64,000 nucleotides of DNA from Octopus vulgaris. Lineage: Eukaryota. Both the position numbers and the translations under genes were made by a program. Position 1 is the first letter of the stretch. The number at the start of each line of letters is the position of its first letter. Location of the stretch: positions 80,972,001 through 81,036,000 of the forward strand of contig OX597817.1 of the NCBI GenBank assembly GCA_951406725.2, read 5' to 3'. The notes under the pieces are model-generated. The model was not told the DNA's origin. It searched no databases and worked only from the letters and a program-made list of their open reading frames with translations. Shown one piece after another: positions 5,218 through 56,360 of the stretch.

Positions 5218-5248
<31 letters not shown>

Positions 5249-5437: not shown

Positions 5438-5474
<37 letters not shown>

Positions 5475-5649: not shown

Positions 5650-5722
<73 letters not shown>

Positions 5723-6979: not shown

Positions 6980-7028
<49 letters not shown>

Positions 7029-8367: not shown

Positions 8368-8435
<68 letters not shown>

Positions 8436-8605
8436 GGTGATGAGGACGACGACGGTAATGATGGCAATTATGATGATGATGATGATGACCACGATAACGA
8501 AGACAATAAGGGTGATAACGATCATGATGATAATGACAACGATGACGATGACATCGATGACAGCGCACTGCAGATCATGATGTTGATGTCTTCTTCTTCT
8601 TCTTC
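5960..8605. repeat. Low-complexity block of mixed trinucleotide repeats ((CTT)n, (CAT)n, (GGT)n, (TAG)n, (GAT)n)
   Basis: Read directly. Confidence 0.85.
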
Positions 8606-8894
8606 CAATCAGGACTCACGCCATTAGCCACAAAGAATAATCTCTAATTCGAGCCTCCTCTAAGCTACTAAGAATGCGTGTGGCAACTTGAAGATCTACC
8701 AACCACACGCGATAGACCTGCGGTTACACGGGCGCGAAAGCTATGTTGTTATCCTCATTCCGTAAACGGTGGTTTTTAACGGGTGGCGAGCTGAACCATC
8801 CTGGGGTACAGAGGATTCGCAATCTAGACTAGGGTCTGAAAGTTTACCACACCATAGTGGGTTACACCATGGTTCTTCTGCTTTGTGTCATAAG

Positions 8895-9057
8895 TAGGAA
8901 GAAAGAGTGAAAGTTGTGGTGAAAGAGTACAGCGGGGTTCACCACCCTCCCCCGCCGGAGCCTCATGGAGCTTAGGTGTTTTTGCTCAATAAACACTCAC
9001 AATGCCCGGTCTGGGAATCGAGTACGCTGCCCTAACCACTGGGCCATTGCGCCTCCA
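8895..9057 (-). mobile_element. SINE family C, partial
   Basis: Reverse complement of head GGAGGCGCAATGGCCCAGTGGTTAGGGCAGC...TTTATTGAGC...AAACACCTAAGCTCC. Confidence 0.85.
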
Positions 9058-21805: not shown

Positions 21806-22507
21806 TACTTAAAGTGGCAAACTTGCAGAATCGTTAAACCGTCAGAAAATGCCTTGTAGTATTTCTTCTAGCAACTTCTCTTTTGGGATTATTGTAAGTG
21901 AAACGTTCGGTTTTTTTTCTTCTTTTGAATGAAGTTTCTAGGATGTGACACAAATGATAGTAAGGTTCTATTGTTTAAACGTATATAGATTTAAAAAGAA
22001 AATTGCAAATTTTGCTCTAAAATTCGTTGTAGGCTGTCTTCCCAGACAGAACTCGTGAGTTTAACAATTTGAAGGCCGTCATTTCGATATTGCTGTCATA
22101 CCACTCGTATTCTTTACATGTGAAACAAAATCCTTTGAGTTCAATTTCCGCTGGAGTCACTTTCCAGTTTCCTCCCTCCAGAGTTTGTAAATTATAGTAT
22201 CAGTCAAGTACTGGGATCGATGGTTTTAACTAGCCTCGACTCCTCAAAATTGCTGTTCTTGTGCCTAATAAGAAGCCATGTTAAACATTACCCAAAATAA
22301 TTAATTAAGTATACTTAACAAATTGTGTTGGATGGAGACTTTGTAACACAACCGAAGCTGATAGGACCTAATTCGACCGAAATTCCAATTGTGCAGTGGA
22401 TGGAGCTATATGTTTTCTTGGGGAGTAATAACTTCCAAATTGCTTTTAAATGAAACCATAAACACTTTTTGTCTTTGGATTTGGTTCGCGTGTTGAAGCA
22501 TATTCTG

Positions 22508-22767
22508 TTGTGTCTGGGAAGAGTCATTTTATTTTTGTGCCTTATAATGTAACACACTCACCGGTAAAATTTCCACTTATTTCTTATTTTTATTTTCCTA
22601 AAATTTTCGTTGCGTCTTGCAACCTTTTCAACAGCCTTGACTCTTGAAAAGGTTGCAAGACGCAATGAAAATTTTAGGAAAATAAAAATAAGAAATAAGT
22701 GGAAATTTTACCGGTGAGTGTGTTACATTATAAGGCACAAAAAGAAAATGACTCTCACCAGATACAA
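22508..22767. repeat. Fold-back palindrome, ~125-bp arms, 12-nt loop, hammerhead-like core at the centre
   Basis: 22508-22631 vs 22644-22767 are near-perfect reverse complements; loop is CAGCCTTGACTC. Confidence 0.95.
22641..22678 (+). ncRNA. Candidate minimal hammerhead ribozyme (U3:A8 variant); mirror copy on the minus strand at ~22597-22634
   Basis: TTGAAAA-G-GTTGC-aagac-GCAA(T/C)-GAA-AATT-T. Stem II pairs fully in the minus copy and stem III is palindromic (AATT). Stem I is weak or truncated at the loop. Confidence 0.45.
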
Positions 22768-23249
22768 TATAAACACTTTAATATATAGGATTAATTAAAA
22801 ATTGTCTTAAGGTTTTAGAAAGATTGGTTGTGGTCTTCTGACTTTCATGTATTTGCCAAGAATAACTGTGGCATAAATGAAATCGAAGAGTGGTTCCAGG
22901 AAATTGAAATTGAATCAAAGATTTATTTCCTCAGAATCTATATTTTCTTTTTTGTTTTTTTTTTTTGGCTCTATATAGTTCGCCGCCACAGAATATTATG
23001 ATAACAGGAATAATAAGGAAATATAATTATTTCATAAACTTCTTTGTAAAGGAGCGATGGCCGAAAGAGCAATTTGCGGAAGCAGTGTCCATGTTACCAA
23101 ACCAAGTAACCGAAACTGCAGTTAATGGTTACCTCTTAAGAGCTCCAGTGTGCAACACACACATGCACAAGCGCACATATACATACACGCGCGCACATAC
23201 TCACACGCTTACATATCTTTGTTACCTACAGAGCATAACGCACACATAT

Positions 23250-23296
23250 ATAGATATAGCTATATATATATATATATGTATGCATATATATATATG

Positions 23297-23347
<51 letters not shown>

Positions 23348-23432
23348 GTATATATATATGTATATATATACGTATATATATACGTATATATATATATATG
23401 TATATATATACGTATATATATATACGTATATA

Positions 23433-23477
<45 letters not shown>

Positions 23478-23574
23478 GTATATATATATATGTATATATG
23501 TATATATATGTATATATATATATGTATATATATATATGTATACATATATATGTATATATATATGTATATATATG

Positions 23575-23605
<31 letters not shown>

Positions 23606-23630
23606 GTATATATATGTATATATATGTATG

Positions 23631-23667
<37 letters not shown>

Positions 23668-23932
23668 GTATATATATATATATATATATACGTATATATA
23701 TATGTATATATATATATACATATATACGTATATGTATATATATATGTATATATATATACGTATATATATATGTATATATATATGTATATATATGTATATA
23801 TGTATATATATATGTATATATATATGTATATATATGTATATATATGTATATATATATGTATATATATATATGTATATATATGTATATATATGTATATATA
23901 TATACGTATATATATATGTATATATATGTATA

Positions 23933-24002
<70 letters not shown>

Positions 24003-24003
24003 G

Positions 24004-24048
<45 letters not shown>

Positions 24049-24453
24049 GTATATATATGTATATATATATATATGTATATATATATATGTATATATATGT
24101 ATATATATGTATATATATGTATGTATATGTATATATATATATATATGTATGTCTATGTATATATATGTATATATATATATATGTATATATATGTATGTAT
24201 ATATATGTATATATGTATATATATATGTATATATATGTATGTATATGTATATATATATGTATATATATGTATGTATGTATGTATGTATATATATGTATAT
24301 ATATGTATATATGTATGTATATATATATATGTATATGTATATATATGTATATATATGTATATATATATGTGTGTGTGTATATATATATATAAATATACAT
24401 ATGTATATATATATGTATATGCATATTCATACATGTATATATATGTATGTATA

Positions 24454-24492
<39 letters not shown>
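23250..24492. repeat. ~1.2-kb interrupted (TA)n/(TATG) microsatellite
   Basis: Read directly; source of the long spurious YI/CI ORFs. Confidence 0.97.
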
Positions 24493-24497
<5 letters not shown>

Positions 24498-25399
24498 GGT
24501 TAGAAGATATCAATTATTCGCAATTCACTAACGGTCTAATGTCTTGTTTTATTTTAGAGTTGGTTAACTCCCACCCCTTCCTTATTGCAAGGAAAATTAG
24601 TTACAGGGACATTACAAAATGTGATCTTCCGCTAGTCACTGTCCTGAAGGTTCGAACATAAAACACCAATTAAACTTGTCGTTTAACCATAGCCAAATCC
24701 GTTACGGAGGATTTCATTGCTAGAACCATGACTAATTTACATATTTGCCGCTTCATCAATCAATTATAGTTATCTGTCTGTTCAGTAAAGTTAGGTATGT
24801 CACAGATTCATTTGGGACATCGTCGACTCCCCTCCCCACCTGGCTGTTCCTAATGCATGACACTTGTACAACCAGCGTTGAATTTTTCAATTCATATGCA
24901 AACAGCCTTTGCTGAAAGACTTTGTGTATTTTAGCCCCTGGTACATTTTATTTACAGAAAGTCTGTCATTGACCGCTGCTCTACTTTAAAACACAAAAAT
25001 AAACAGAAGGGCCTCAAAATAATAGCAACTTAACTGTTATTTTATCTTGCATCATAATCAGCAAAAACAAGGAGACCATGTCTAATGATGCATACGCATC
25101 ACCTCTACCAATAGGGCAAAAAGTGTGTTGTGGTCAGTGCATTGTGGTCAGTTATAAGTGCGTTGTGGTCAGGGCATTGTGGTCAGTTATAAGTGCGTTG
25201 TAGTCAGTTAATTACCTCCCCTCTCTGCTGCCTACTAAACCGGTACATATTATATTAAGTTCATCGTGACCTTAAACAGATAAAGGGGAAAATATCTTTT
25301 CGCTGAATAAGGCAGCAGTTAATAGCAGTGAACTTTCTTGGATAGAAAATAAGCCTAATACTTAAAGCCAACACATCACTTGTAGATGTCATAGTATTA

Positions 25400-26200
25400 T
25401 TCGTTTCAAATTTTGGCACAAGGCCAACAAGTTCTGGGGAGGGTGTAAGTCGATTATACCGATTCCCAGTGCTCAACTGGTACTTATTTTAATGATCCCG
25501 AAAAAAATGAAAGGCAAAGTCGACCTTGGAGAAATCTGATCTCAGAACATAAACACGGGCGAAATGTCGCTATGCATTTTACCCGGTGTGCTAACGATTC
25601 TGCCAGCTCACCACCTTAATAATAATAGTTTCAAATTTTGGCACAAGGCAAGCAATTTTTAAGAGGTGGTAAATAAATCGATTACATCGATCCACAGAGT
25701 TCAATGGTTCAATGGTTCTAGCGAATCCGAGAAGGTTGAAAGGCAATGTCGACCTCGGCAGAATTTGAACGCAGAACGTAAAGACAGACGAAATGCTGCT
25801 AAGTATTTTGCACGGTGTGCCAACGATTCTGCCAGCCCGCCGCCTATGTCATAGTATTATTGCTTCTTCTTCTTCTTCGTGGTGGTGGTGGTGGTGGTGG
25901 TGGTGGTGGTGGTGGCGGCGGCGGCGGCGGCGGCGCGTCATGGCCCCTACCAGACCTAATATATCATTACTGCTTGTTTATAAGGCGGTGAGCAGGCAGA
26001 ATCGTTAGCACACCGGGCGAAATGCTTAGCGGCATTTCGTTAATCTTTATGTTTTGAGTTCAAATTCCGCCGCGGTCAACTTTACCCTTCATCTTTTCGG
26101 GGTCGAAGAAATAACTACCAGTTATGCACTGGGGTCGATGTAATTGACCCCCACTCACCTACCAAAACATTTCAGGCCTTGTGTTTATAGTAGAAAGAAT
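25400..26200. mobile_element. Three SINE A copies: 25400-25617 (-), 25625-25845 (-), 25984-26200 (+)
   Basis: Family A head, body and tail on both strands, around a (TGG)n(CGG)n tract. Confidence 0.85.
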
Positions 26201-26863
26201 TACTTCTACTTGTTTATAGAAGTAAGTCATATAACCCGGCGAATCATTTTCCCATCAAGAAGGACTTTACCAGTTGAAAGTCAATAGTCTTGACCTTGAA
26301 ATTACTTTGTCTCCCAACTCAGGCACTGCTCAGACACAAGAATATACGTATACCTTCTGTTATGCATATGTGTACTTGCGTACGTCTGATGTGTGCGTCG
26401 GTTTTATGAATGTGGCTGGGTGAGCACACATTTGTGCACATGCTTCCGTTTGTACACCATGTGATACTCTCCCTATCACTGCTTCTCTTCACTCTCTCTC
26501 TTATCCTCTCTTCTTATCCCTTCTCTTTTTTCACTTTCTCAATTCATCTATCTATCTATCTATCTCTTACATTATCTTTTTTCACCCTTTTTAGTTCTCA
26601 CTTCTAACATTCTTCCTCACTTCCTCACACAACAGTCCTCTCTCTCTTCCTCTCTCTCTCTCTCTCTAATTATTTCTCATTCTGTTTCTTTCCTCCTCTC
26701 ACTCTCTCTCCCTCTCTCCCCATCTTTCACTCCCTCTCTCCATCTCTCTCTCCCTTTCTCCCTCTCAGACCATTTCTCTCTCTCTTTCTCACACACATAC
26801 ACACAACCGTTTCTCCTTTTCTCTGACTCCCCCACGCTCTATCATTCTCTGTATCTCACTCTG

Positions 26864-26925
<62 letters not shown>

Positions 26926-27099
26926 ACACACACGCACACTCAAACACTCTCTCCTTTCCCACCCTCTCTGCCTCTCTCTCTTTCTCTCTCTCTCATTCTC
27001 TCTCTCTCTCTCTCCCTCTGTCGGTACACATCATTATGAAGCCATTATCATGGTTTCATATGACAATCAAGTTGACATGAATACTGAACGATTAGAAGA

Positions 27100-27255
27100 C
27101 TAAGAGCAAGTCTTTGGGCGGGAATGTGGCGGTAGGAGCCAATAAAAGCAAGTGCATATTGCTTTGTAATGGCTTCTCCTATACACCGGAAGTTAAGAGA
27201 CGCATCTAAATGGCTGAAACATCTCGCTGTCCTTCACACATACCGCCATAACATC
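27100..27255. promoter_or_regulatory. Candidate promoter-like motif cluster
   Basis: TTTGGGCGGGAA (GC-box/E2F-like, ~27113-27124), AGCCAAT (27137-27143) and ACCGGAAGT (ETS consensus, 27185-27193) within 80 bp of unique sequence. Confidence 0.35.
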
Positions 27256-28399
27256 ACATTTGGTTTAGGCAGAGTTTTTTTTTTGTTTTGCTATTTGGTG
27301 TATATAAATGTTTAAGGAGTTTTTTTGTTAATTTATAGTTGTTGATGTTTTTGGTTTTGTTTTTTATGGAGAGAGGCAAGGATGGTTGGGGGGTTTGTCG
27401 TAAAAAAAGAAGTTCCGTCTATACGGATGTAGTTCACAGCCTCTGTGTAAATCAGCGATCTCGAACATTCGATGAATACTCCGACCAAGACGCAGAGTGC
27501 AGTAGTGAATAGAAAATACAAATAAATAAATTTCTATTTGCATTAAGCGTTATTATTGTTGTTATTATGGAGAGGAAGGTTGTCTTGGTTATGATAATAA
27601 TTATTATTTTTCTTAATACCGTCATACTCGTATGTGAAGGTGCGTGGTGTAGAGATTAAGCAGTTGAGCTCGTGATCGCAAGGTCATAGATTCAATTCTA
27701 GGACCGGATTGTACTTTGTGTTCTTGAACAAGGCTCTTCATTTCGTGTTACCCTTGTTTACTCAGCTGAAAATAATTACGTGCTGATATAGCTTTCAATC
27801 TTCCCCCAGCTATAATATACTCGTGTCCCTTTGAGTCAAGAATGAAATGATTAAGAGGGTGTCTATACCTGCCCTCAACTACAAAGATATCTAAAACAAT
27901 TAGCGCAAAAGTGGTACAAGCTACTATACTAAGACTTACGCTCTTGCGAGTGATGGCCAAGATTTTTTATTACCATCATATTAAGAGTAGTACATGATAC
28001 AATTGATAGAGCACTAGTCTGAACAACGTGTTCTGAGTTCAAAACCCATAGGGGTCATCTTCGCATTTCGTCCTTATTTGGTCAATAAAATAAACTACCA
28101 CACAAATACCGGGATCAATATGATCGACCTTTTCTCTTTGCGTATAATTTTTGACCTTGTACCTGTAGGAAAATTGTTAATATTACTATTGTATTCAAGA
28201 TTGTAAAATTGTTAAAGTGTCGGACTTGTGGTACTTTGTTAAATCTCTTTAGTTCTGAGTTTAGATCCAACTAGAAGTCAACTTTAAATTTCATCCTTAA
28301 GGGTTCGGTAATGACCAAGTATTGTGGTCGATTGCACCTTTGTCTCAAAATTGGATGGAGTTTCTGTAATTGTTAGAAATGATTATGATGTTGGTGTTC

Positions 28400-28545
28400 A
28401 TTATTTACATTATTTACATTCGACGGTTATTTGTCCTCATCTTGTTAACACAACGTTTCGGCTGACATACCCTCCAGCCTTCTTCAGGTGTCTTGGGGAA
28501 ATTTCGAACCTGGGTTCTCATTCCTAAGGTATTTTTCGATATTGT
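28400..28545 (-). mobile_element. Short hammerhead-bearing element (PLE pLTR-like fragment)
   Basis: Contains the canonical hammerhead listed next; abuts a (TTG)n tract. Confidence 0.55.
28447..28492 (-). ncRNA. Minimal type-I hammerhead ribozyme
   Basis: Minus strand GACAC-CTGAAGA-A-GGCTG-gagggtatgt-CAGCC-GAA-ACGT-T-GTGTT. Canonical CUGANGA/GAAA core, paired stems I and II, palindromic stem III. Confidence 0.75.
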
Positions 28546-28695
28546 TGTTGTTGTTGTTGTTGTTGTTTGAAATCGAAATCGGAATCTTTGGGTTAAGAGT
28601 GCGGTCTACTAACCCCAAGATTCCGAGGACGATGCCAAGCAGTGGCCTCAGCAATAATAATAATAACAATAATAATAATAATAATAATAATAATA

Positions 28696-28697
<2 letters not shown>

Positions 28698-28746
<49 letters not shown>

Positions 28747-28970
28747 TTAGTTTGGCTCAGGTTCGGTCTTATTCCTGGTAGGATTTATGCGAGTAACCTT
28801 AGGTATCCACAAGTTTTCAGCAGTCTTTCAAGAGCTTAGAACCCTTCTGATAATCTCTGCTGTCCCTAAGAGACAAGCTTGCCGCAGGAGCTCTACCGGG
28901 CATTCTATTTCAATCTCCTTCAGCCATTTGTCTATATCTTTGCTTACTGTTCCCTACGCACCAATTATTA
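28698..28970 (-). mobile_element. 3' end of an R4/Dong-like RLE LINE with (TAA)n tail
   Basis: Minus-strand IIGA*GTVSKDIDKWLKEIEIECPVELLRQACLLGTAEIIRRVLSS* is a typical RLE-LINE C-terminus, followed by a short UTR and (TAA)n. Confidence 0.8.
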
Positions 28971-29777
28971 TATAATAATCTCATGCTCCAAATTCTTCCT
29001 ATTTCAAATTTTGAGGGATTGTATTATTTTTCGTCCTCGTTTTTTACGATCCTGGAATAATAATAATTAAGTACCAGTGAAATACTGGAGTCGATGTAAT
29101 CGACTTGTCCCCTCCCCAAATTGTTCCTCCCTAATTTCAGGCCTTTAAGGCGGACAATTGTTAGAACATCAGAGAAAAAGCGCAGCGGTATTTCTCCTAT
29201 TTTTACATTGAGTTGAAATTCAACAGAGGTTGACTTTGTCTTTCATACTTTTAGAATTGATAAAATTAAGCACCAGTCAAGCATTGGGGTAAATGTAATT
29301 GACTAGCCCCCTCTACCAAAATTTCAGGTATTATGTCTGTAACAGAAGGAATTATTATGCTTTTTCTTTTCTTCAGTAGTTTCATGCAAGTTTCTACTAC
29401 TTCACCTGATGCAGTTCCATGTTCCTGGGGTGTGTGCGGCATTGTTCTAATTTTAGTGGAGATTGGAGAAGTTTAGACAACTCCTGCTGGTGTAGGGCAC
29501 CTGTTTCTTATGTGATGAGGTTTAGTTTCTGTAAGTCTGTTTAGTTTCTGTAAGTCTATTAGATATAATTGTAGTAATCGAAGATCGTGAGATAATAAAA
29601 TATATTCCTCTATTGAAATAGAAAATTGTATAAGTTTATCGAAGATATAAACCTTTTAGTATGGTGGGTAGCGATAGAGATATTCCAGAGTTCGAAATAT
29701 TCGCAGCATATAACATTAATGACGGAGATGTACTTGCATAGCAAGTAACCTGATCTGAGGTCGTGTGCTGGAACGAA

Positions 29778-29938
29778 AACAATTGTAGCGTGGAAGGTGT
29801 TTATAAGCCATTTAAGAAACACACAAAATCTGTTAGATTCACTTCAACATTAAAATTAAATTTAAATGTTGAAGTGAATCTTATGGATTTTGTGTGTTTC
29901 TTAAATGGCTTATAAACACCTTCCACGTTGCAATTGTT
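29778..29938. repeat. Fold-back palindrome, ~74-bp arms, ~13-nt AT loop
   Basis: AACAATTGTAGCGTGGAAGGTGTTTATAAGCC...CTTCAACATT / AATGTTGAAG...GGCTTATAAACACCTTCCACGTTGCAATTGTT. Confidence 0.95.
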
Positions 29939-31512
29939 GTGATAACATTAATAAGAAAAATAGCTTCTCATAGCAACGTTTTGTATCAAACGTTTAGTTT
30001 TGCATACATTCTCTTAGTTATTGCTTATATTTGTTTTCGTTCTTAAGTCATGGATTTGAAAATTCTTCTTATTAGAGAAATATCCTTTGTGTTAGGGCAC
30101 AAGGTCTACGTTTTTAACATCAGTCGCTTAATTTTTCTCTTGTTATATCTCTCTCCCCTTATCCCTCTCTCTCTCTCTCTCTCCTACTCCCTTTCTCCCT
30201 CCCTCTCGCTCATTCTGTTTATACATGTGAACATATTTCAATTTATGTGTAAGAAGAAATGGAAAGTGTTTACGTCAGTCGTGTTAAATAAATAAACTGT
30301 AATGTTCCTTTTTGCCCCTCTCTCTCCCTTCTTCTCCCACTCTCCCCCCTTCTCGCTCTCTCTCTCTCTCTCTCTCTTTTAATCTGTATCTTTTATCTTT
30401 GACTTATTTCAGCTATTTGACCGAGGTCATGCTGGAGAACCGCCTTGAAGAATTTTTAGTCGAATGAATCAACCTCAGTACTTTTATGTGTACAATCCTG
30501 CGCACGCGTGTATGTGTGTATATGCGTGTGTGTGTAAGAAAGAGAGAGTGTGTGTGTTTGCTTCCAGCGCCAAAATGTGATGTCGCCAAAACATACTGAA
30601 TTTCCTGTCAGGCGTGCCAAATTATCTGCGTCCAAGCAGCTGCGCCAAATTGCCTCACTTCGACTTAAACCCACTCATCAATATCGGGTTATATTCTAAA
30701 ATTATTACAGACAACATCGGAGACTTGATCTCCTTCTCATTAGTTTGATGTTACTAGGGATATTTTCAAACTCATCTGATTTTCTCAGTGTGTGGTAGTT
30801 AGGTGAGAACTAGGTTTACTTAGAAATCAATATTATAATATTTATATAAATATATAACATAACGTATACCATTTGTCTAGTATCTCATGAATTATTTACT
30901 TAATATTGTGGCTTCAGGACATTTCATTAGCTTTCACTGTTATTGATATTGAGGAATTCTTGATAGTTCAAATTTATACGAAGTTAACGTTTCCATACCA
31001 TTCTCAAATTCCTTACTCTTTTCCTGCAATTTTCAATTATCGTTTAGTTGACCTGTCGCTGGTTTAAATCATGGAAAAATTTTCATATTTTTTCTACTCC
31101 TTTACCAAAGAACTCATTTTATTTTCTAATAAGTGTAAATTTATTCTTTATTGAAAGTTCAACAAGAATGTTTCTTAGTGTAGATAGGCGCTTGTTTAGG
31201 CATTTTTTACCAAAGGTCTTTTTTCCTTTCTGCTTCTTCTGTTTTCTTTTTTAGTTTTTTTTTAGTTTTAAGGTTAGAATGATTTTTATCCTTATCAATG
31301 AGTCATTTTGCTGTCGTTTCTGGTATTAAATTAGAATATTAAATATTTTTCTTAAATACCTTATTGATGTTTTCTTCTTTCTCATTAAAATTAAATAGTG
31401 ATGGTTGTCGTGTCCAGTTTCAGGATGTTTTAGTCTGTGAGCTGTTTTCACCGTTCATATATCTCCCATAACATACTCTATAGCATTTTTATTCCTGTAT
31501 CTCGTATTTATT

Positions 31513-31828
31513 GGAGGCGCAATGGCCCAGTGGTTAGGGCAGAGGACTTGCGGTCGGAGGATCGTGGTTTCGATTCCCAGACCGGGCGTTGTGTGTGTTT
31601 ATTGAGCGAAAACACCTAAAAAAGCTCCACGAGGCTCCGGCAGGGGTGGTGGTGAGCCCTGTTGTACTCTTTCGCCACAACTTTCTCTCACTCTCTCTTC
31701 CTGTTTCTTGAGTAACGCTGCGATGGACTGGCATCCAGTCCAGTTGGGGGGAACACATACGCCACAGAAACCGGGAAACCGGGCCCATGAGCCTGGCTAG
31801 GCTTGAAAAAGGGCGACGTTTATCGTTT
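31513..31828 (+). mobile_element. SINE family C, tail type i (V-domain-like), with 15-bp target-site duplication
   Basis: Head GGAGGCGCAATGGCCCAGTGGTTAG; tail CTGCGATGGACTGGCATCCAGTCCAG...GAAACCGGG. Flanks TATCTC(G/T)TATTTATT at 31498-31512 and 31829-31843. Confidence 0.92.
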
Positions 31829-32903
31829 TATCTCTTATTTATTAGTGTGCTCTAAATCTGTATCCCCTACCTATTGTCATGTATTACTTTTCATTTTGAT
31901 ATTTGGATTAATTCTGTTTTGGTTTTTCCACAATTCCCCTTTTGAAGTTCTATTATTTCATATAAATCTGTTTATTTTTTCGTTCACTCCAAGACATTTG
32001 TTATTTTGGAATAATGTCTTCCATGAACTAACGTTCTTTCTTTTAAAACTGATTTCAAGACCTTTTTAAATTTTTTTTAATTCGAAAACTGTTATTCTCT
32101 GCTTCTGCAAAGGGTAACAATTTGGGCGACCGTTCTTCCAACAACTCCAACAGTTTCACTGTACTTTATAAAATGGCCGTTTTACTATCTTTTACATCTT
32201 TCTACTTTCCTGTCTATTTTGCCTTGTTTCTTTTTCCTTTCTGTTTTTTTTTTGTTTTGCTTTTGTTTCTGTTTTCTAATTTGCCCTTGTTATCAGTATA
32301 GGAAGTCATTATAAATTATTGCTTCAAATTTAACATATTCTTTTTAGGATTGTGCTACAGGGTTCAATTCCTTCTGTTAACTCGCTTTTTTCCATTAAAT
32401 CCAGATACAGATTAAGGAGTAAAACTTACTAATAATTCAATGGGACAGGTCTGGTATTTGTCAGCCAGGAAAAGACTACCTACCTTCCAGCCACTGGAAA
32501 AGATTGCCTACCTATCACGACCATCCACCCAAAACATTCAAGTCATAACCATCACGTGTTTTGTTTTGCCTTTTTATTTGGGGTGCATGTTCTAAGAGAT
32601 CCTAGCAAGAACATCAAATCAAAGATCTTAAAGACTTTACATTAGCCTGTTGCACTGCAAAAGCTCAAGACAGTCCTGTTCAATCAGACCGTACGGTCAA
32701 AGACAATCAACCTTGCACATCCTAATATTTTTTCTTTGTATATTTATGGTTCATTGTGTTTCATTTGTAAGAAATGAGGGTGTAATGACATGAGGACAAT
32801 TTAGCTGCTATCTCTAACAGATCGTATGACATCATGCAGTTTGCTGGTGTCCCTGCTTTTGCTGGAAATGCTGTTGTTGCATTTGCAGTTAGTATTTCTG
32901 CTA

Positions 32904-32950
<47 letters not shown>

Positions 32951-33867
32951 TGTGGTGGTGGTGGTGGTGATGGTGGTGGTGGTGGAGGTGGTGGAGGTAG
33001 TAGTGGTGGTGCTTCTGCTGTTAGAATAGGTGGTGGTGCTGGTAGTAGTGGAGTGCGGACAGTTGTGGTAATAGTGGTGATGGTAGCGGAGATGGTTGTG
33101 TTAGGACAGGGCAGAATGAATCGATGTGAAAAATGTGGAGAAAATAAATTAAGTTCAACTTCAATATTTTTTTTATATTTGTTTTATTTATATTTGATTA
33201 AATTGTGTTGTGGGTTTTTTCTTTTTTGTTTCTTTTTCTTTTTTTTTCTTCTTTTTGTTGCTGCTTTTGTTTGTTTCATTATTTCCTTTTCATTATGACC
33301 GAAATTACAACCAAGTGAAATGATGTTCCTTCGCAGGGAAAACGTGGTTGCGTGCGCGTTCTTGCACGTCTCCTCTTTCTGTATGTCGTTACGAATATGT
33401 GTATGTGTGTATGTATGGATGGATCTGTTTGTGTGCGCGTGTGTGTATGCGTGTATGTATGTGTGTAGAGAGAGAGAGAGAAAAGGAGAGACAGGGAGAA
33501 TTATCGATGTGGCATTAAAGACGAAGTATTTTTTGCATATACACATGCATGCATGTCCGTACGCATGCGTACATACGTACACACGTGTATTCATGCAAAC
33601 TCATATACATACAACATACATGCATATATGCATCCATATAAAAGTGCTACATGCGGGTACATACCTTTACATTAGTATACAAACATGCAACTTTACAATT
33701 TTACAATGAAACCCACATAATAAACGACACATACACATCATCTATTCGTATGCACTCACAGTTTCTTATTATCTCTCTCTCTCTCTCTCTCTCTTTCACA
33801 CACACACACATATGCATACTTACATCTATACATACATGTTTCTCTGTGTATGCGTGCGCGCGCGTGC

Positions 33868-33930
<63 letters not shown>

Positions 33931-34784
33931 AGTTCTCCGCAACCTTTTTTTCACTTTCGGTATACTTCGGGCGGCACACCTAGCATTCAGATTAGACTGC
34001 AGCGCACACCGAGCATCGTCTCGTGGCGCATCAGCGTGCGGAGCACAGACAGACAGACAGATATTACTGCTTGTTTTTATGTTCAGTTTTTACATTAATC
34101 TGAAATGTTACTCTATGCTTTTCAAGAATGTAAATTCATTCTTCTTTTTTTTTTCAAAAAAAGAATATTATTGACAGTGATTTCGAAGTTTCGGTCAGCA
34201 AAGCTATCATCGGCCAGCGAAGCTGTCATCGGAAGAAGAAGAAGAAGAAGAAGAAGAAGAAGAAGAAGAAGAAGAAGAAGAAGAAGACGGAGGAGGAGGA
34301 GAAGAAGAAGCAGAAGAAGAAGAAGAAGAAGATGAAGAAGAAGATGAAGAAGAAGAAGAAGAAGAAGAAGAAGCAGAGGAGGCATTATAAACCTATAAAC
34401 CTATAAATCTTATTGCTTATATATTTTTCACACATAATTTTTCTGTATTCTACCTTCCACCCTGCATTTTTCCCTGTGCGTATATAGACGTGTATATGGA
34501 ATCCTTTGTGCGCGCGTGTGGTTGTGTGCGTGTGTGCGGGTATGTGCGTATATAGATGTGTGTGTGTGCGTACATGCGAGTATGTGCATATATATAGACG
34601 TGTTTTACTCATTGTTTTTTTACACATTTTCCTGAATACTATGAACTTTTTATCCCCTTACTTTTACTCCCTCCCCTCACTTAGCGCTCATTCAAATAGC
34701 TCTTTTGTCTTAATAACGGTCAATTACAAAGTAATTTCCCTTTGTTTAACGGTCATTTTCATAGCATTTTTCCCTATGACCGGA

Positions 34785-34840
34785 TAACTGAAGAGATGGC
34801 GGCGTGGATTTCCACCCCGACATCCGAAACTCGGAATTTT
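34785..34840 (+). ncRNA. Degenerate hammerhead-like motif upstream of (TA)n
   Basis: CTGAAGA-GATGgCGGcGTGGAttTCCACcCCGaCATC-C-GAAAC. Canonical core boxes around a long imperfect stem II; stem III and the cleavage triplet are decayed. Confidence 0.45.
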
Positions 34841-34859
34841 ACATTGCTACCGAATAATT

Positions 34860-34893
<34 letters not shown>

Positions 34894-36076
34894 GTTTATA
34901 AAGTTCATCGAGCATGTCCTGTGTTATATATATATATGCATGTGTGTGTATGCATGTTTATACGTGCATATGTGTATATATACCTTTATATCGATACATG
35001 TATGTATGTATGTTCGTAGGTAGGTACGGGATGGTATGGTTAGGTTAGGTTTGGTTAGGAAATAGTTCGCTTAGCAATCTCCATGGTTGAGCCAAAATCT
35101 TTTGATAGAAAATGGATAAACGGAAACTTTATGGAAAACCGTCATGCGAATGGCCCCCATAATTCAAAGGTCTGACCTATGTCACACACACTGTGTCACT
35201 CAGATTCTGTTAAACGATTATATCAAGGATAGAGATATCTGTCGGAATATTCAACCACTTACACACAAATTCAATAAGCAAGGTAATTCACTTGATCAAA
35301 CAATTGAAGTCATCGTCGAAACCAACGGAGATCCATTTGTTCTTTTTTTGTTTTTTTTGTATTATGTTTTTACATTTATGTATGAGTGTGCGTGTTTGCA
35401 GGTTGAGTTTAAATCAAGGTAATTATTATAATGGTGAGTTTCTGGGAGTCGCTAATGAAAGATTGGCATAGGGAACCATTCTGACATGCCAAAGACGCAC
35501 GCGAACCTACATCCTCGCTTAAAATTATTCGGAGCAGACAATCAACTCTCTACCAACCTTTTTAAAACATACATACCTCTCTCCCTACTCTTTCTCTCTC
35601 TTCCTCTCCCTCACTCTTTCTCTCTCTTACTTTATCAATCTATCTATTTATCTATCTATCTATATGGCTCTAGCTCTATCACTGTTAATCATCCTCTCAC
35701 AACTACTTTCCCAGTTTCACTTTCGTTTGTTCCATTTAAATCTCTCACCTTTGCTCGCAGTTCTCTCTATCTCTATCTTTCTCTCTATCTATCTTTCTTT
35801 CTTTCTTTCTCTCTCTCCCTTTCTATTTCTTTCTCTCTTCCTCTCTCTCGCTCTCTCACTCACTCTATTCTTTCAAATCTCCCTCCTCTTCCATCGAAAA
35901 GACACACACACACACACACAAAGCATATGCATGCAAATACACGCACATACACGCGCGCGTGTACGCACACTTACACACACCACTTAAAGTACCATTTTCT
36001 CTTTCTGTTTGATTAAACCTGTATTCATTTCTGTAACTTTCTTTCTTGCCAGTCCTTATTTTTCTCTCCCACTCTG

Positions 36077-36124
<48 letters not shown>

Positions 36125-36159
36125 TCTCTCGTCTTTATATACATGAATATATATATATA

Positions 36160-36316
36160 AAGTTAATCCAAACAAGAAAGCACAAAAAAACAGCAACGCG
36201 AGGACGTGGAACAAATATCGTATTATTGGACGCTCAGGAAAGAAGGAGGGTTTAACGTTTTGAGCGGAGATCTTCGTCGGAAACATAGGAGAAGGAAAGA
36301 TCCAGAGAAGGGAAAA

Positions 36317-36320
<4 letters not shown>
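36160..36320 (-). mobile_element. Short (TA)n-flanked element with a degenerate hammerhead (36250-36284)
   Basis: Minus GTTT-CCGACGA-A-GATC-tcc-GCTC-AAA-ACGT-T-AAAC. Downstream TTCCTGAGCGT...AATAATAC resembles the element at 41896-42098. Confidence 0.55.
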
Positions 36321-36361
<41 letters not shown>

Positions 36362-36390
36362 ACATAACACATATATTTACATACATATGT

Positions 36391-36683
36391 GGAGGCGCAA
36401 TGGCCTAGTGGTTAGGGCAGCGGACTCGCGGTCGCAAGATCACGGTTTCAATTCCCAGACCGGGCGTTGTGAGTGTTTATTGAGCGAAAACACCTAAAAG
36501 CTCCACGAGGCTCCGGCAGGGGGTGGTGATCCCTGCTGTACTCTTTCACCACTCTTTCTTCTGTTGGCCTGCTCGCTTAGCCAGCGGGGTGGCGTCATTC
36601 GAAGGCTAAAACAATGCGAACGCATTGTGACCAGCGGTGTGTAGCAACATCTGATGGTCTGGTCGGTCACGTGATCCCGTGAT
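36391..36683 (+). mobile_element. SINE family C, tail type ii
   Basis: Matches the 10065-10376 copy. Confidence 0.92.
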
Positions 36684-36686
36684 ATT

Positions 36687-36758
<72 letters not shown>

Positions 36759-36839
36759 AGGGTGAAAAGGAACACACGAGTTGATATATATGAAAAAACA
36801 AGTCAAAAATAGAAAATGCTAAAATAATTTTATAGTGAA

Positions 36840-36887
36840 CATTTCAGTACCGGTTTCGGTCATTTTGAGACCTTTTCAACTGTAACG
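36840..36887 (-). ncRNA. Mirror copy of the U3:A8 hammerhead in the inverted arm
   Basis: Reverse complement of 38714-38761. Confidence 0.75.
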
Positions 36888-37437
36888 ATTAAATAATTAA
36901 ATTTAGAAAAATTAGAAAAAAGTTTTTTTAAAGGAATATTTCTATAGTAGTGTTCAGATATAAGTGGCATTCTGCCTTTCTCTGACTCCCTTGTTTGCAC
37001 TTGTGTGTTCGAGGTCGTTGTGAGTTCTTGGTAGGGTAGTAGAGGAAGAGGGCTGGTGAGGAAAGGGGGTGGGAGAATCTGGGAGTGCCCTGATGGTCGT
37101 ATTTTGAATGGTCAGTGGCGGCTGGCAGTCTCAGTTCAATTCAGGAGAATATTTATATTGACAGGCTTGTTTATAGAATTAGCGTAGGTGTTATACTAAA
37201 AAACATTAGTGACAAAGTTAAGGGGTAGGGGGTGGAGAAGTAGAAGAAGAAGAAGAAGAAGGAGAAGGAGAAGGAGAAGGAGAAGATGACGATGATGGTG
37301 GTGGTGGTGATGATTATGACGACGATGATGATGATAATGATGATGATGAAGAAGAAGAAGAAGAAGAAGAAGAAGGAGGAGAAGGAGAAGATGGTGGTGA
37401 TGATGGTGGTGATGATGATGACGACGATGATGATGAT

Positions 37438-37985
37438 AATCCTCCAAACACACACGATCATGACAATCCTCCAAACACACACGATCATAAAAAGCAAAAG
37501 ACAGCCTAGAACCATGAAAAGTCTCCTTACACAAGCCCGAATTCACTCTTCAACACAGAAGCCGACAGTAAAAAAATGTGGAAGACCCAATTGCGGGATA
37601 TGCGACTATCTTATTGAGGGATCAGAGTTCTCCTTCAAACAGGGACAACGGTTTACAGTGAAAAGCAACTTCACATGTGCTTCGGAGAACCTAATATACT
37701 CACTAACCTGCTCCGGGTGTCAAGAGCAGTACATAGGCCAAACAAAAAATGGTTTGCGTAAACGAATGGCCCTGCACAGATCCCAGATAAAAATTCCCCA
37801 AAACAGAAAAATAGCTTTTAGCCAACACATAGATACTTGCGCCAACAAAAAAACCACCAAACTTCAGAATTTTCCCCCTCTACCAATTTAGGGACGATAC
37901 AACCTCGAGACAACGAATAAGTAAAGAAAATCTCTTTATTGCAAAATACAAGCCACTTCTTAACGGGTCTACGACAAACAATTAA
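37438..37985 (+). pseudogene. PLE GIY-YIG endonuclease domain (C-terminal fragment, one frameshift)
   Basis: KKCGRPNCGIC Cys linker, FTCASENLIYSLTCSGCQEQYIGQT (GIY-YIG motif), RMALHRSQI and FSQH. After a frameshift in an A-run (~37850) it continues PPNFRIFPLYQ...KENLFIAKYKPLLN..*. Confidence 0.9.
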
Positions 37986-38115
37986 TATACCTCAACTTTA
38001 GAATAAAAGAAAAATATATATACACACACAAATATTACACTCCATAGAATCCATTACTAATCAGCCCCTTCATAGCTATATTTACACCCATTCATATTCT
38101 CCCTTCTCTGTTTTT

Positions 38116-38148
<33 letters not shown>

Positions 38149-38713
38149 ATCATCATCATTATCATCATCATCGACGTCATCATCATCACCACCATCATCA
38201 CCACCATCTTCTCCTTCTCCTCCTCTTCTTCTTCTTCTTCTTCATCATCATCATTATCATCATCATCGTCGTCATAATCATCACCACCATCACCATCATC
38301 GTCATCTTCTCCTTCTCCTTCTCCTTCTCCTTCTTCTTCTTCTTCTTCTTCTTCTTCTACTACTTCTCCACCCCCTACCCCTTAACTTTGTCACTAATGT
38401 TTTTTAGTATAACACCTACGCTAATTCTATAAACAAGCCTGTCAATATAAATATTCTCCTGAATTGAACTGAGACTGCCAGCCGCCACTGACCATTCAAA
38501 ATACGACCATCAGGGCACTCCCAGATTCTCCCACCCCCTTTCCTCACCAGCCCTCTTCCTCTACTACCCTACCAAGAACTCACAACGACCTCGAACACAC
38601 AAGTGCAAACAAGGGAGTCAGAGAAAGGCAGAATGCCACTTATATCTGAACACTACTATAGAAATATTCCTTTAAAAAAACTTTTCTAATTTTTCTAAAT
38701 TTAATTATTTAAT

Positions 38714-38761
38714 CGTTACAGTTGAAAAGGTCTCAAAATGACCGAAACCGGTACTGAAATG
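38714..38761 (+). ncRNA. Minimal type-I hammerhead ribozyme, U3:A8 covariant core
   Basis: CGTTACAG-TTGAAAA-GGTC-tcaaaat-GACC-GAA-ACCGGT-A-CTGAAATG. Stem I pairs 7/8, stem II is 4 bp, stem III is palindromic (ACCGGT), and the cleavage triplet is GUA. Confidence 0.75.
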
Positions 38762-38803
38762 TTCACTATAAAATTATTTTAGCATTTTCTATTTTTGACT
38801 TGT

Positions 38804-38858
<55 letters not shown>

Positions 38859-39109
38859 TAGACATTCAGACAGGCAGACAGGCAGACTAACAGGCAGAAA
38901 GAGAGCTTGTAAGCTAACTAGACACGCATACAGACAGATAGGTAAAGGTATTATCTAAAGACCTACACAAAATATATATCTTTCTGTCATTTAATGCCAT
39001 AGAGAGAAAGGATGTGTAGAACATTGGAAATGGTACTTTTATTGATTCATAAAGTACCTACACAGTGCAAAAGACATACATAAATACAAAATGGATTTAA
39101 GAATAGATA

Positions 39110-39321
39110 TTTCTTCTACTCTAGGGACAAGGCCCAACATTTTGGGGACAGGGGCCCCAATCGATTTGATCGACCCAGTACGCAACTGGTACTTAATTTA
39201 TCGATCCCAAAATGATGAAAGGTAAAGTCGACCTCGGCGGAATTTGAACTCAGAACGTAAAGACAAACGAAATACCGTTAAGGATTTCGCCCGGCGTGCT
39301 AACGTTTCTGCCAGCTCACCG
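39110..39321 (-). mobile_element. SINE family A
   Basis: Reverse complement of the family A consensus. Confidence 0.9.
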
Positions 39322-39805
39322 GATTGATGGTAAAACAGATATTGAAGCCAATTATGAGTATATTGTACCTGGAATAACATGATTTTGTGGATTGTGTATT
39401 ACATTGCGTTTTTCGGTCGCAAAGCAAGCACTAACCATTTATAATCCTCCAGGGACGCAGAAAGGAAGAGAGAATGAAGTATGCTAATATATAGGCGTAT
39501 AAGACTCAGCATGGATCGAGTGCGACAATTCCTTTTGAGGTTCAAAAAATTGGATGAAACGATAAATGTGAAACAGTGGGTTACTTTGATTCATTTAGTC
39601 TTTAACACATATTTCATGGCAATAAGCTATATATAGTGACGTTTTTAATTTAGAAAAGAAAATTAAATACACGTTTTATTTCCACACATACGCGAGAGCG
39701 CGTAACTACAAGAGATTTTCTCGGCATCTTTTATCTTATGCATGTTTCAGTTATTGGAATACTACCATGCTGGTGCACCGCCTTGGACAATTTGTTTTAG
39801 ACGAA

Positions 39806-39851
<46 letters not shown>

Positions 39852-39855
<4 letters not shown>

Positions 39856-40111
39856 GTTGGTGCATAATTATTGCGGCTTTTTTTCAATAAATTTTATTCA
39901 ACAACATCAATACGAACAGTTAACAAAAACATCTTTAAATGATTATTCCGGCCGGCTGCCAAGCAAATGGGAAGCAGTAATTGAAGTAGATGGTGAAAAT
40001 GCTCCGGAATAATCATTTAAAGATATTTTTGTTAAATGTTGTGATTGTTTGTTTGTTTTTTTTTTAATAAAATTTATTGAAAAAAGCCGCAATTAATATG
40101 CACCAACCTAA
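39852..40111. mobile_element. Mariner-derived MITE built from two 3' ends
   Basis: TA-TTAGGTTGGTGCA...TGCACCAACCTAA-TA (Hsmar1/MADE1-like TIR). ~100-bp inverted arms; the centre encodes RLPSKWEAVIEVDGENAPE*, resembling a mariner transposase C-terminus. Confidence 0.88.
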
Positions 40112-40144
40112 TACATATGTATATATTGTATATAATATATAAGT

Positions 40145-40194
<50 letters not shown>

Positions 40195-40365
40195 GACCGT
40201 TGCCTCTTTTGTTTTGTTATCGTTTTCGGTTTTCGTCGTCTCTTTACCGTAGCCAGTATTTACTTTGTTCCACACACCGTTACATACATACACACATATC
40301 TATATATAAATGTGCATACACACACACACACACATACACACATATTTGTGTTTATATATGCACCC

Positions 40366-40398
<33 letters not shown>

Positions 40399-40804
40399 TG
40401 TATGTATGTATGTATGTATGTATGTATGTATGTATGTGTGTATGTATGTATGCATAAGATGATTTCTTACGGTTGAAAGAGTTCAGAATTTATCGAGCCA
40501 TGCGAACGAAAAGGCGATTGCAATCCCCAACCTGTGACCCTTAAACCAATAAATTAATAAAGCATTGACCGATTCTATATCTTCAAGCGAACCTCACAAG
40601 AATCTCTTTACCATTTTTTTCCTCTTCCATCCTGCCGTCTCGCAGATTATTTGTTCTAATTCGGACATACCGTTTCCTTATTGTAATTGAAAGAAATATT
40701 TATGCAAGACAAACTAACCAGAGTAAAAGCAAGTGTGAATGTACGCAGACCGCCAGAGACACATTGAGTAACACATGCGCACACGTATACACACTTTGAA
40801 ATAC

Positions 40805-40844
<40 letters not shown>

Positions 40845-40892
40845 GCGTGTGCGTGTGTGTGTGCGTGTGCGTGTGTGTGCATGTGTGTGTGT

Positions 40893-41228
40893 GAAGGCGC
40901 ATGATTCAGTAGTTAGTGTCGGTCTCACAATCAAAGTAGGGAGTTCGATTCCTGGACCGGGCTATGCGTTGCGTTATTGAGCAAGACACTTTATTTCACA
41001 TTGCTCCAGTTCACTCAGTTGTAGAAACGAATTGTGACGTCACATGTACCAAGCTGTATTGGCTTTAGCCTTTCCCTTAGACAACATCGGTGGCATAGAG
41101 AGGGGAGGCTGGTATGAGTGGGCGACTGCTGGTCTTCCATAAACAACTTTGCTTGGACTTGTGCCTCGGAGGGTAACCTTCTAGGTCCAATCTCACGGTC
41201 ATTCATGACCGAAAGGGGTTTTTACTCT
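40893..41228 (+). mobile_element. SINE family D
   Basis: tRNA-like head (GTTCGATTCCTGGACCGGGC) and TTGAGCAAGACACTTTATTTCAC core; matches 57881-58210. Confidence 0.88.
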
Positions 41229-41794
41229 GTGTGTGTGTGTGTGTGTGATGCATGTGTTTGGCTATATATTTCTTCAATACAGGGAGATCGGTTTCTAACA
41301 CAAGAACAAGGCTTTTTCATCGGAATGTAACGACATCAGGCTAAGTAGTGATGTATGTATGCATTCATGTATGTATGCATGTATGTATACATGTATGCGC
41401 GTATATATGTATGCAAGTATGTATACATGTATGTATGCGTGTGCATGTATGTATGCATGCATGTATGCATGCATGTATGTATGTATATATGTACTATGCA
41501 TGCATGTATGTATGTATGCATGTATGTATACATGTATGTATGTGTGTGCATGTATGTATGCATGCAAATATGTATGGATGCATGTATGTATGTATGAATG
41601 CATGGTATATATGCACGCATGTATGCATACATGTATGCGCGTATATATGTATGTAAGATAAAGGATAAAGAATTTGTGTTAATGCTGAAAAGTTTAACAT
41701 TGTATGCCCTAGAGCAGTGCCCCGCAACCGGCATACATACATATATATATATATATATATACATACATACATACATACATACATACATACATAC

Positions 41795-41851
<57 letters not shown>

Positions 41852-41895
41852 CATACATATATATATATACATACATATATATATATATATATATA

Positions 41896-42094
41896 GTCGC
41901 CATGATAGATCGTTAGCCACTGCACACTTTTTTTTTGTCTCCTTGTTTCTCTCCTTGTTTTTTCTGTGTCCCTTTCTGTAGAAGAGCGTAGGCTCGAAAC
42001 GTAAAAGACTTTTTCTATTCTTGAGCGTTATACTAATACATCTGTTTGTTTTGTACACCACCTGTCTTCGTCTTTTGTTTTTTTCGTAAACTCT

Positions 42095-42098
<4 letters not shown>
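41896..42098 (+). mobile_element. ~200-bp (TA)n-flanked non-coding element with a hammerhead-like motif (41972-42007)
   Basis: CTTT-CTGTAGA-A-GAGC-gtag-GCTC-GAA-ACGT-A-AAAG. Stems I and II pair and stem III is palindromic; the core has U at position 6. Confidence 0.6.
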
Positions 42099-56044: not shown

Positions 56045-56360
56045 ATAATAAATTTACATGTGTGCATGTTTGCATTAATATAAACAGTCTTTAAATTAAT
56101 GCAGATATCAAGCTATATACATATATATATATAACCGTTAGCATATATCAGACAAATAGTTATGACACTCAGGAAATGGATGACGATACATCGTCAACAG
56201 ATCAGGGAACCATTGTGTCAAGATGTAGAAAATTATGGGAGACAGGTTTTACCAAACTATTCGGTCTTCTCATTCTATCAGTGTAGCGACTCTACGACGA
56301 ACAGCAAGGACACAATAAAGAAAATGTTTTATTAGCAGATACAAACTGAAACAATGCATT
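56045..56360 (+). pseudogene. Decayed PLE GIY-YIG endonuclease fragment
   Basis: AYIRQIVMTLRKWMTIHRQQIREP...LPNYSVFSFYQC aligns by eye with YIGQTKNGLRKRMALHRSQIKIP...PPNFRIFPLYQ of the 37.5-kb copy; KFTC lies upstream. Confidence 0.7.

What the first reader, a model, noticed from the sequence alone, without database searches (positions are those of the whole stretch)
22508..42098. A suite of microsatellite-dwelling short elements carrying variant minimal hammerhead ribozymes, next to a candidate Penelope-like driver
Seen: six loci in 20 kb have a hammerhead-like layout of [C/U]UGANNA-like box, stem II and GAAA, most with a palindromic 4-6-nt stem III. They are at 22644, 28447(-), 34788, 36250(-), 36840(-)/38714 and 41972. 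Most lie in 150-260-bp non-coding units in or next to simple repeats; one lies in the pLTR of a GIY-YIG element. Half-motifs (GAAAC-nnn-GTH, then a polyA-like signal) occur at ~13235(-) and ~43830(-). Established: PLE pLTRs carry minimal type-I hammerheads with palindromic stem III that cleave as dimers, and Neptune-type PLEs favour microsatellites. Inference: this is a diversified set of non-autonomous ribozyme-bearing retroelements (retrozyme-like or solo pLTRs) mobilised in trans by PLE RT/GIY-YIG.
Basis: partly seen in the sequence, partly recalled or inferred. Interest (0 to 1): 0.75.

Follow-up and report, generated by a model that had tools for sequence, protein, structure and literature searches.

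The report
Penelope retrotransposon ends with hammerhead ribozymes
The six hammerhead-shaped RNA motifs are real; five are the leftover tail ends of five different protein-coding Penelope-type jumping genes and the sixth likely is too, so this is a known kind of element that happens to be very abundant here, not a new set of parasites moved by the neighbouring gene.

Summary
Observation confirmed: six hammerhead-shaped loci, far above chance; the two 'half-motifs' are chance. Each locus belongs to a different high-copy family. Five are the 3' pLTR of their own Penelope-like element (PLE): 38722/36879, 41976 and 36280 Neptune-type, 28487 Poseidon-type, 34788 Hydra-type. The 22644 family has the PLE footprint (one-sided tail, 9-15-bp target duplications), but no ORF was reached. 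Short copies share the majority sequence of ORF-linked pLTRs, and short tandems are rare, so they are not retrozymes. The 'driver' is a dead, truncated copy of a young family. All this matches Cervera and de la Pena 2014. Points of interest: about 100,000 such motifs genome-wide; family-wide core variants (U6, C4, U3:A8, G3:C8); 5' ends that pile up about 150-250 nt from the 3' end, likely run-off at the transcription start; a tRNA-like head in the Poseidon pLTR; a likely -1 frameshift in the young family. Cleavage is untested. The scan noted the abundance, the tRNA head and G3:C8 before, on other DNA of this genome.

The parts
22469..22768 (.). Family B: head-to-head inverted pair of a PLE-type 3' end, tail on the left arm only; hammerheads at 22644(+) and 22631(-) with U3:A8 box, extra nt after A9, 5-bp stem II, AAUU palindrome, 3-bp stem I
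22458..22468 (+). 11-bp target-site duplication, left copy (right copy 22769-22779)
   Evidence: 14 of 27 family pairs have a non-simple duplication of 9 nt or more, against 5 of 702 mismatched pairs
28395..28590 (-). Family C arm: end of tRNA-like head, (AAC)n linker, pLTR body with canonical-core hammerhead (box 28487-28481, predicted cut after 28452)
28591..28700 (+). Family C opposite arm: tRNA-like head and (AAT)n; its hammerhead body is missing and an unrelated LINE-like 3' end follows
   Evidence: LINE type recalled, not tested
29762..29938 (.).
34410..34862 (+). Family D: internally deleted 3' end of a Hydra-type PLE; hammerhead box 34788-34794, bulged helix II, 9-nt imperfect palindrome 34829-34837 (one mismatch in this copy); ends at (TA)n
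36160..36314 (-). Family F: pLTR end of a Neptune-type PLE; box 36280-36274 with C4; this copy has G12>A and a broken stem II, predicted inactive
36738..37439 (-). Family A inverted arm with tail; hammerhead box at 36879
37427..38808 (+). Family A direct arm: 5'-truncated Neptune-type PLE (Zn-linker and GIY-YIG fragment 37463-37982, one-base frameshift near 37790, no RT), 3' UTR and pLTR; (TA)n on both outer sides of the pair
38715..38761 (+). Family A hammerhead: U3:A8 box 38722-38728, 4-bp stem II, ACCGGU palindrome, predicted cut after 38753
41896..42097 (+). Family E: solo pLTR of a Neptune-type PLE between simple repeats; box 41976-41982 with U at position 6, ACGU palindrome, predicted cut after 42003

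Best explanation
Five of the six units are 5'-truncated 3' ends (pLTRs) of five different protein-coding Penelope-like retrotransposon families and the sixth likely is, each likely pasted by its own family's reverse transcriptase-endonuclease and carrying that family's minimal hammerhead, which is predicted to cut only as a dimer and weakly. Shown: fixed 3' ends, optional tails, head-to-head inversions, target duplications, insertion into (TA)n, and continuity with RT/GIY-YIG frames. Inferred: the enzyme nicks AT-rich DNA and starts cDNA at the pLTR end or the tail end. When it starts at the upstream pLTR of an mRNA it would run off at the transcription start after about 150-250 nt, which would explain the excess of short, similar-length copies. 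Two such cDNAs, or a fold-back at a small hairpin as in family B, would give the inverted pairs. The ribozyme is then probably a passenger in most short copies.
For: A: a 4.42-kb unit in head-to-tail tandems with a 784-aa RT + GIY-YIG frame. The protein search scored 150 of 17,072 candidates, all 95-100% identical to the query. In 30 loci the 3' end is fixed and the 5' ends vary, with frequent inversions. E: 30 of 30 loci found with upstream sequence carry the unit downstream, and 7 of 30 reach RT/EN remnants. C: of 30 loci found with a Poseidon-type RT peptide, 23 carry the head and/or body downstream on the same strand, starting about 25 nt after the ORF stop. F: 15 of 20 pattern-selected copies share upstream sequence; 4 of 4 fetched RT-bearing loci end in the unit, and L401 is pLTR-ORF-pLTR. 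D: the upstream sequence encodes an endonuclease with the CxCX5C linker that defines Hydra. Stems I, II and III are formed in all seven families by different sequences, and the 3:8 pair is C:G, U:A or G:C. Literature: Cervera 2014 reports U3-A8, the extra nucleotide, palindromes, single motifs 'probably related to truncated PLEs' and opposite-strand pairs. Frangieh 2024 shows internal RT initiation at pLTR and tail ends, and that cleavage is not needed for insertion in vitro.
Against: No ORF was reached for family B: 9 copies were read 1.5 kb upstream and share at most about 390 nt of CA-rich sequence. The pile-up of short copies could also come from solo pLTRs that are transcribed and re-inserted in trans; identical majority sequences do not exclude this. 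E background copies are more mixed than the ORF-linked set (6 sites differ in frequency), although the ORF-linked set was selected by similarity to one copy. A6>U (75 of 77 E copies) and U4>C (most F copies) would be expected to lower activity (Perreault 2011, passages on A6C and U4C). No cleavage or transcription start was measured.
Confidence: 0.85

Rival explanations
1. The short units are self-propagating non-autonomous elements: solo pLTRs transcribed from their own promoter and re-inserted in trans by the parent family's enzyme. This is the first reader's view, with the cognate family rather than the neighbour as driver.
For: Sharp 5' limits. F: 0 of 36 background matches pass -124 from the cut and 19 lie between -124 and -88. 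B: 0 of 20 pass -44. E: 3 of 27 ribozyme-covering matches pass -122 (the background holds some overlapping loci). In C most short copies start at or within the tRNA-like head. pLTR cis-elements sufficed for mobilisation in trans in a rotifer (PMC3846280 passages).
Against: No diagnostic lineage; longer copies with scattered 5' ends exist for A, C, D, E, F and a B sibling; run-off from the parent mRNA predicts the same lengths.
Confidence: 0.25
2. The units are non-LTR retrozymes that spread through small circular RNAs.
For: Type-I hammerhead in a 150-260-nt non-coding unit; retrozymes derive from pLTRs (bioRxiv 10.64898/2026.07.22.740005).
Against: Head-to-tail neighbours under 700 bp occur in 2 of 37 B loci, 3 of 87 E loci (two are the same place) and none of the A, C, D, F or G loci. 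Unit ends are the pLTR ends, not the cleavage site. The cores are minimal, not canonical with loop contacts.
Confidence: 0.05
3. Family C is a tRNA-derived SINE that borrowed a PLE tail (my first reading).
For: tRNA-like head, (AAT)n linker, many copies starting at the head.
Against: The head lies inside the autonomous element, directly after the ORF stop; 2 of 12 background head matches continue into the ORF end.
Confidence: 0.05

Closest known systems
Minimal type-I hammerheads of metazoan PLEs (Cervera and de la Pena 2014, PMC4209133; parts 1-2 of 4 read)
   Same: pLTR location, many sequence families per genome, U3-A8 covariation, unpaired nucleotide between 9 and 10.1, G10.1-C11.1, palindromic 15.2-16.2, mostly single motifs, opposite-strand pairs 100-700 bp apart, bulged helix II in some.
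   Different: Numbers: about 2,000-9,000 per genome there with their descriptor, about 100,000 here with mine. Family-wide U6, C4 and G3:C8 cores are not mentioned in the parts read.
Neptune, Poseidon and Hydra PLE clades (Craig et al. 2021, PMC8557442; passages and section 11 read)
   Same: C-terminal GIY-YIG; CX2-5CxxC linker (A, E, F), none (C), CxCX5C (D); 5' truncation, partial tandems, inverted 5' copy, one-sided tail, (TA)n targets.
   Different: Family A has a separate upstream frame overlapping the RT frame; family C has a tRNA-like segment in its pLTR. Clades were assigned by motif, not by a tree with reference elements.
Poseidon_Ac in vitro (Frangieh et al. 2024, PMC11167929; parts 1-2 of 4 read)
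   Same: Two RT start sites bracketing the tail, AT-rich targets; a C3G/G8C double change partly restores cleavage.
   Different: One family tested in vitro; no analysis of short-copy length pile-ups in the parts read.
Animal non-LTR retrozymes (PMC7229834 passages; bioRxiv 10.64898/2026.07.22.740005 parts 1-3 of 5)
   Same: pLTR-related, non-coding, type-I hammerhead.
   Different: Defined by tandem units with a hammerhead in each, and by circular RNAs; not seen here.

Membership tests
Minimal type-I hammerhead of PLEs | Core box with 3:8 pair, G5, A9, G12-A13-A14, A15.1-U16.1 | tested here: met
   Family majorities of A, B, C, D, E, F, G. Deviations: U6 in E, C4 in F; the window F copy lacks G12.
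Minimal type-I hammerhead of PLEs | Stems I and II plus palindromic stem III | tested here: met
   Each family forms them with its own sequence; most predicted pairs are kept in over 80% of copies.
Minimal type-I hammerhead of PLEs | Self-cleavage as a dimer | not testable with these tools
   Cofolding gave the stem III dimer as minimum-energy form for A and C only, 2 of 6; no assay.
EN+ Penelope-like element | RT plus C-terminal GIY-YIG upstream of the pLTR | tested here: met
   A, C (56, 85), D (50), E (55), F (77).
EN+ Penelope-like element (family B) | RT plus GIY-YIG upstream of the unit | tested here: inconclusive
EN+ Penelope-like element | 5' truncation, inverted 5' copy, optional one-sided tail, target duplication | tested here: met
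   A; B: tail on exactly one arm in 26 of 27 pairs, duplications in 14 of 27; C, D.
Neptune clade (A, E, F) | CX2-5CxxC linker before GIY-YIG | tested here: met
   Nematis shares the motif and was not excluded
Hydra clade (D) | CxCX5C linker | tested here: met
Neptune / Poseidon / Hydra clades | Position in the RT tree with reference elements | not tested
   No reference set was fetched.
Non-LTR retrozyme | Head-to-tail tandem units, each with a hammerhead | tested here: not met
Non-LTR retrozyme | Circular RNA | not testable with these tools
   Only assembled contigs were served.
tRNA-derived SINE (family C) | Head-body unit separate from the autonomous partner | tested here: not met

The most novel reading that the evidence does not exclude
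The short copies are run-off cDNAs from the upstream pLTR, so the genome's roughly 100,000 pLTR stubs map the transcription starts of each PLE family. In the Poseidon-type family C that start is a tRNA-derived RNA polymerase III promoter that drives a protein-coding retrotransposon: short copies start at the head, and the element's sense strand lacks shared T4 runs. The most abundant families (E, F) spread with altered catalytic letters, which suggests that cleavage is dispensable.
Probability: 0.35. Interest if true: 0.6.

Novelty: new member of a known kind. Interest (0 to 1): 0.3.

Why it matters
As a class it is ordinary: hammerheads in PLE pLTRs and their scattered truncated copies were described in 2014. 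The value is as material. One 20-kb stretch holds ends of three PLE clades. The genome holds about 100,000 such motifs with natural core variants. It also holds a very young family with many open RT frames that could be used in vitro to ask what the PLE hammerhead is for, which is still open. Some of these stubs may be filed as unclassified SINEs in octopus repeat libraries (PMC13282606 lists 893 recently active unclassified SINE families; overlap not tested). My searches for hammerhead + Penelope + octopus, SINE + Penelope + tRNA-derived + hammerhead, Penelope + polymerase III and Penelope-like + ribosomal frameshift + Neptune showed no paper on these families in the listings. Lunse et al., on PLE hammerhead variants, could not be read and may already cover U6, C4 or G3:C8. 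Supplements of the papers were not read.

Tried and rejected
(1) Rfam scan of the window: no hammerhead among the 150 listed of 455 matches, which were mostly microRNA matches to simple repeats. (2) Rfam gave no tRNA match for the family C head, and relaxed ARAGORN called 3 of 30 with differing anticodons. 'tRNA-like' therefore rests on A- and B-box shapes recalled from knowledge. (3) Separate-SINE reading of C: rejected. (4) Half-motifs: chance. (5) Pile-up of 5' ends at the predicted cut site: a few starts lie near it (B 5 of 20 within -4..+8; F 3 of 36 within -5..+4; both window G arms at +4), but anchored inspection showed no clear peak; not claimed. The C row had a wrong cut coordinate and was dropped. 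The E row had a faulty pattern and was redone. The left-distance column was faulty and not used. (6) A MAFFT alignment across families was uninformative. (7) Sequencing runs: no RNA holder on record. Contigs of three guessed-RNA runs cover most of element A and cross the frame overlap without a splice joint; this is not used as evidence of expression. (8) A GIY-YIG remnant in L103 lies downstream of the C unit and is unlinked.
Full report
Setting. The window lies in a 2.8-Gb genome of 227 contigs. About 9% of the window is simple repeat.

Observation. My descriptor found five strict hammerhead layouts with a palindromic stem III (22644+, 22631-, 28487-, 36879-, 38722+) and a sixth with one core change (41976+). 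Shuffles gave 0.03-0.07 on average. The loci at 34788+ and 36280- were confirmed by alignment to their families: the first has a bulged helix II and a 9-nt palindrome, the second has lost G12. The half-motifs are at chance level, 8 seen against 10.9 expected, and have no second copy in the sequence held.

Each locus is a separate family. Genome searches returned 40-76 matches from 40 scored of 1,015-2,971 candidates for each unit; these are lower bounds and biased to full-length, similar copies. The seven units show no similarity to each other at E 0.01. In 100 evenly spaced 10-kb stretches the descriptor found 36 hits against 0 and 0 in two shuffles, which scales to roughly 100,000 per genome. 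Ribozyme-covering copies per Mb were A 1, B 2, C 7, D 4, E 20, F 17, G 6.

Family A (the 'driver'). Thirty loci share the 3' end at 38808 and differ at the 5' end; many start near 38570-38610 and many have an inverted partner. Full elements are 4.42-kb units in tandems, with a 784-aa frame matching RVT_1 (E 3.5e-8) and GIY-YIG (E 3.8e-4, below Pfam's cut-off) and a CX4CxxC linker. The family is young: 150 scored matches were 95-100% identical to the query, many in open 784-aa frames. The window copy is a 1.38-kb 3' piece with an inverted arm, no RT and a one-base frameshift; it cannot drive anything.

Families E, F, C, D. E: all 30 loci found with upstream sequence end in the unit; shared sequence stops anywhere from 4 to over 1,500 nt further up, and 7 of 30 reach RT or endonuclease remnants 22-37% identical to A over the long matches. 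F: short copies dominate, but 15 of 20 pattern-selected copies continue upstream (20 of 121 exact matches). One of 5 extended copies showed an RT piece in line. All 4 loci then fetched end in the unit, and L401 is pLTR-ORF-pLTR; two of the four were chosen because they lay near a pattern hit. E and F proteins are 57% identical. C: I first read it as a tRNA-headed SINE. An earlier scan note said otherwise, and I tested it: 23 of 30 loci found with a Poseidon-type RT peptide carry the head and/or body downstream, the head starting about 25 nt after the stop codon. D: upstream sequence encodes an endonuclease with CxCX5C and a CxxC before the conserved E, the Hydra signature.

Family B. Nearly all best-hit copies are head-to-head pairs whose centre is a small hairpin about 10 nt upstream of the box. 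The tail is on exactly one arm in 26 of 27 pairs. Non-simple duplications of 9-15 nt flank 14 of 27 pairs, against 5 of 702 mismatched pairs; the window copy has an 11-bp one. Each pair is therefore one PLE-type insertion. Copies without the fold-back (367 pattern matches) include a sibling group that continues into a CA-rich tract, but no ORF within 1.5 kb in 9 copies. PLE parentage is likely, not shown.

Family G. The palindrome at 29762-29938 is a truncated inverted pair of a seventh family whose core is G3:C8 in 4 of 5 copies, with a 6-bp stem I checked.

Ribozyme structure. All families form stems I and II and a palindromic stem III from unrelated sequence. The 3:8 pair is U:A (A 10 of 10, B 46 of 49), C:G (C 52 of 55, F 48 of 55, also D and E) or G:C (G). 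Position 7, the free one, varies most in C and E. This covariation across families is the evidence for selection on the fold; copies within a family are related and add little. E has U6 in 75 of 77 copies and F mostly C4. Perreault 2011 reports low activity for A6C and U4C (passages). In B, C and F about half of the copies still have an intact core and stem II (28 of 49, 30 of 55, 24 of 55). Cleavage was not tested. Published minimal motifs cut weakly and only as dimers or need the PLE protein.

Non-autonomous or truncated? Short copies match ORF-linked pLTRs at the majority level (0, 1 and 1 differences for E, C, F), and short tandems are rare, so neither a separate lineage nor a retrozyme is indicated. 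Lengths are not random, however: F 19 of 36 background matches start 88-124 nt before the cut and none further; E 13 of 27 start 88-122 nt before it; B none beyond 44 (background includes overlapping loci). The simplest account joins two published facts, the promoter inside the upstream pLTR (review passage) and RT initiation inside the RNA at the pLTR end: cDNA started at the upstream pLTR runs off at the RNA 5' end. This step is inference. Family C fits it: of 12 background head matches, 2 continue into the ORF end and the other 10, judged by eye, start at or inside the head. Its sense strand has no T4 run shared by more than 2 copies over 1,478 nt (3.2 expected, P about 0.03 for one element), whereas A and F have more T4 runs than expected. 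Re-insertion of transcribed solo pLTRs cannot be excluded.

Verdict. Real, well supported and of a known kind (Cervera and de la Pena 2014; Craig 2021; Arkhipova 2013 passages). New members, with unusual abundance and some testable variants. Interest 0.3.

Noticed in passing
L191:1418-5046 (family A full element; the window holds only its 3' end): Two overlapping frames (446 and 784 aa) with a U UUU UUA heptamer in the right frame for a -1 shift, present in 9 of 9 held copies. The conserved KGLKF motif lies before the first Met of the RT frame. No strong downstream hairpin was found. The same letters could be a splice acceptor, but no spliced contig was seen. No paper found.
   Followed up: partly
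window 28568-28652 and L338-L366: tRNA-like A/B-box head inside the pLTR of a Poseidon-type PLE, with T4 depletion on the sense strand; possible polymerase III transcription.
   Followed up: partly
window 29762-29938; L242:83-140: Seventh PLE-type family with a swapped G3:C8 core; both window arms begin 4 nt after the predicted cut.
   Followed up: partly
window 39852-40112: 260-bp element with terminal inverted repeats and TA ends, repeated elsewhere; mariner-type MITE by recall.
   Followed up: no
window 28746-28965 (- strand): 3' end of a LINE-like element with an (AAT)n tail joined to the (AAT)n linker of family C; possibly a TAA-targeting LINE (recalled).
   Followed up: no
window 56144-56299: Old GIY-YIG remnant of another PLE family, 36% identical to family A.
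   Followed up: no
L209, L210, L225, L240, L305 (even sample): At least five more hammerhead families, some with long stem II; the one in L305 lies behind a PLE ORF 69% identical to family A.
   Followed up: no
window 1777-2748: 323-aa open frame, Thr/Ser-rich, without Pfam match.
   Followed up: no
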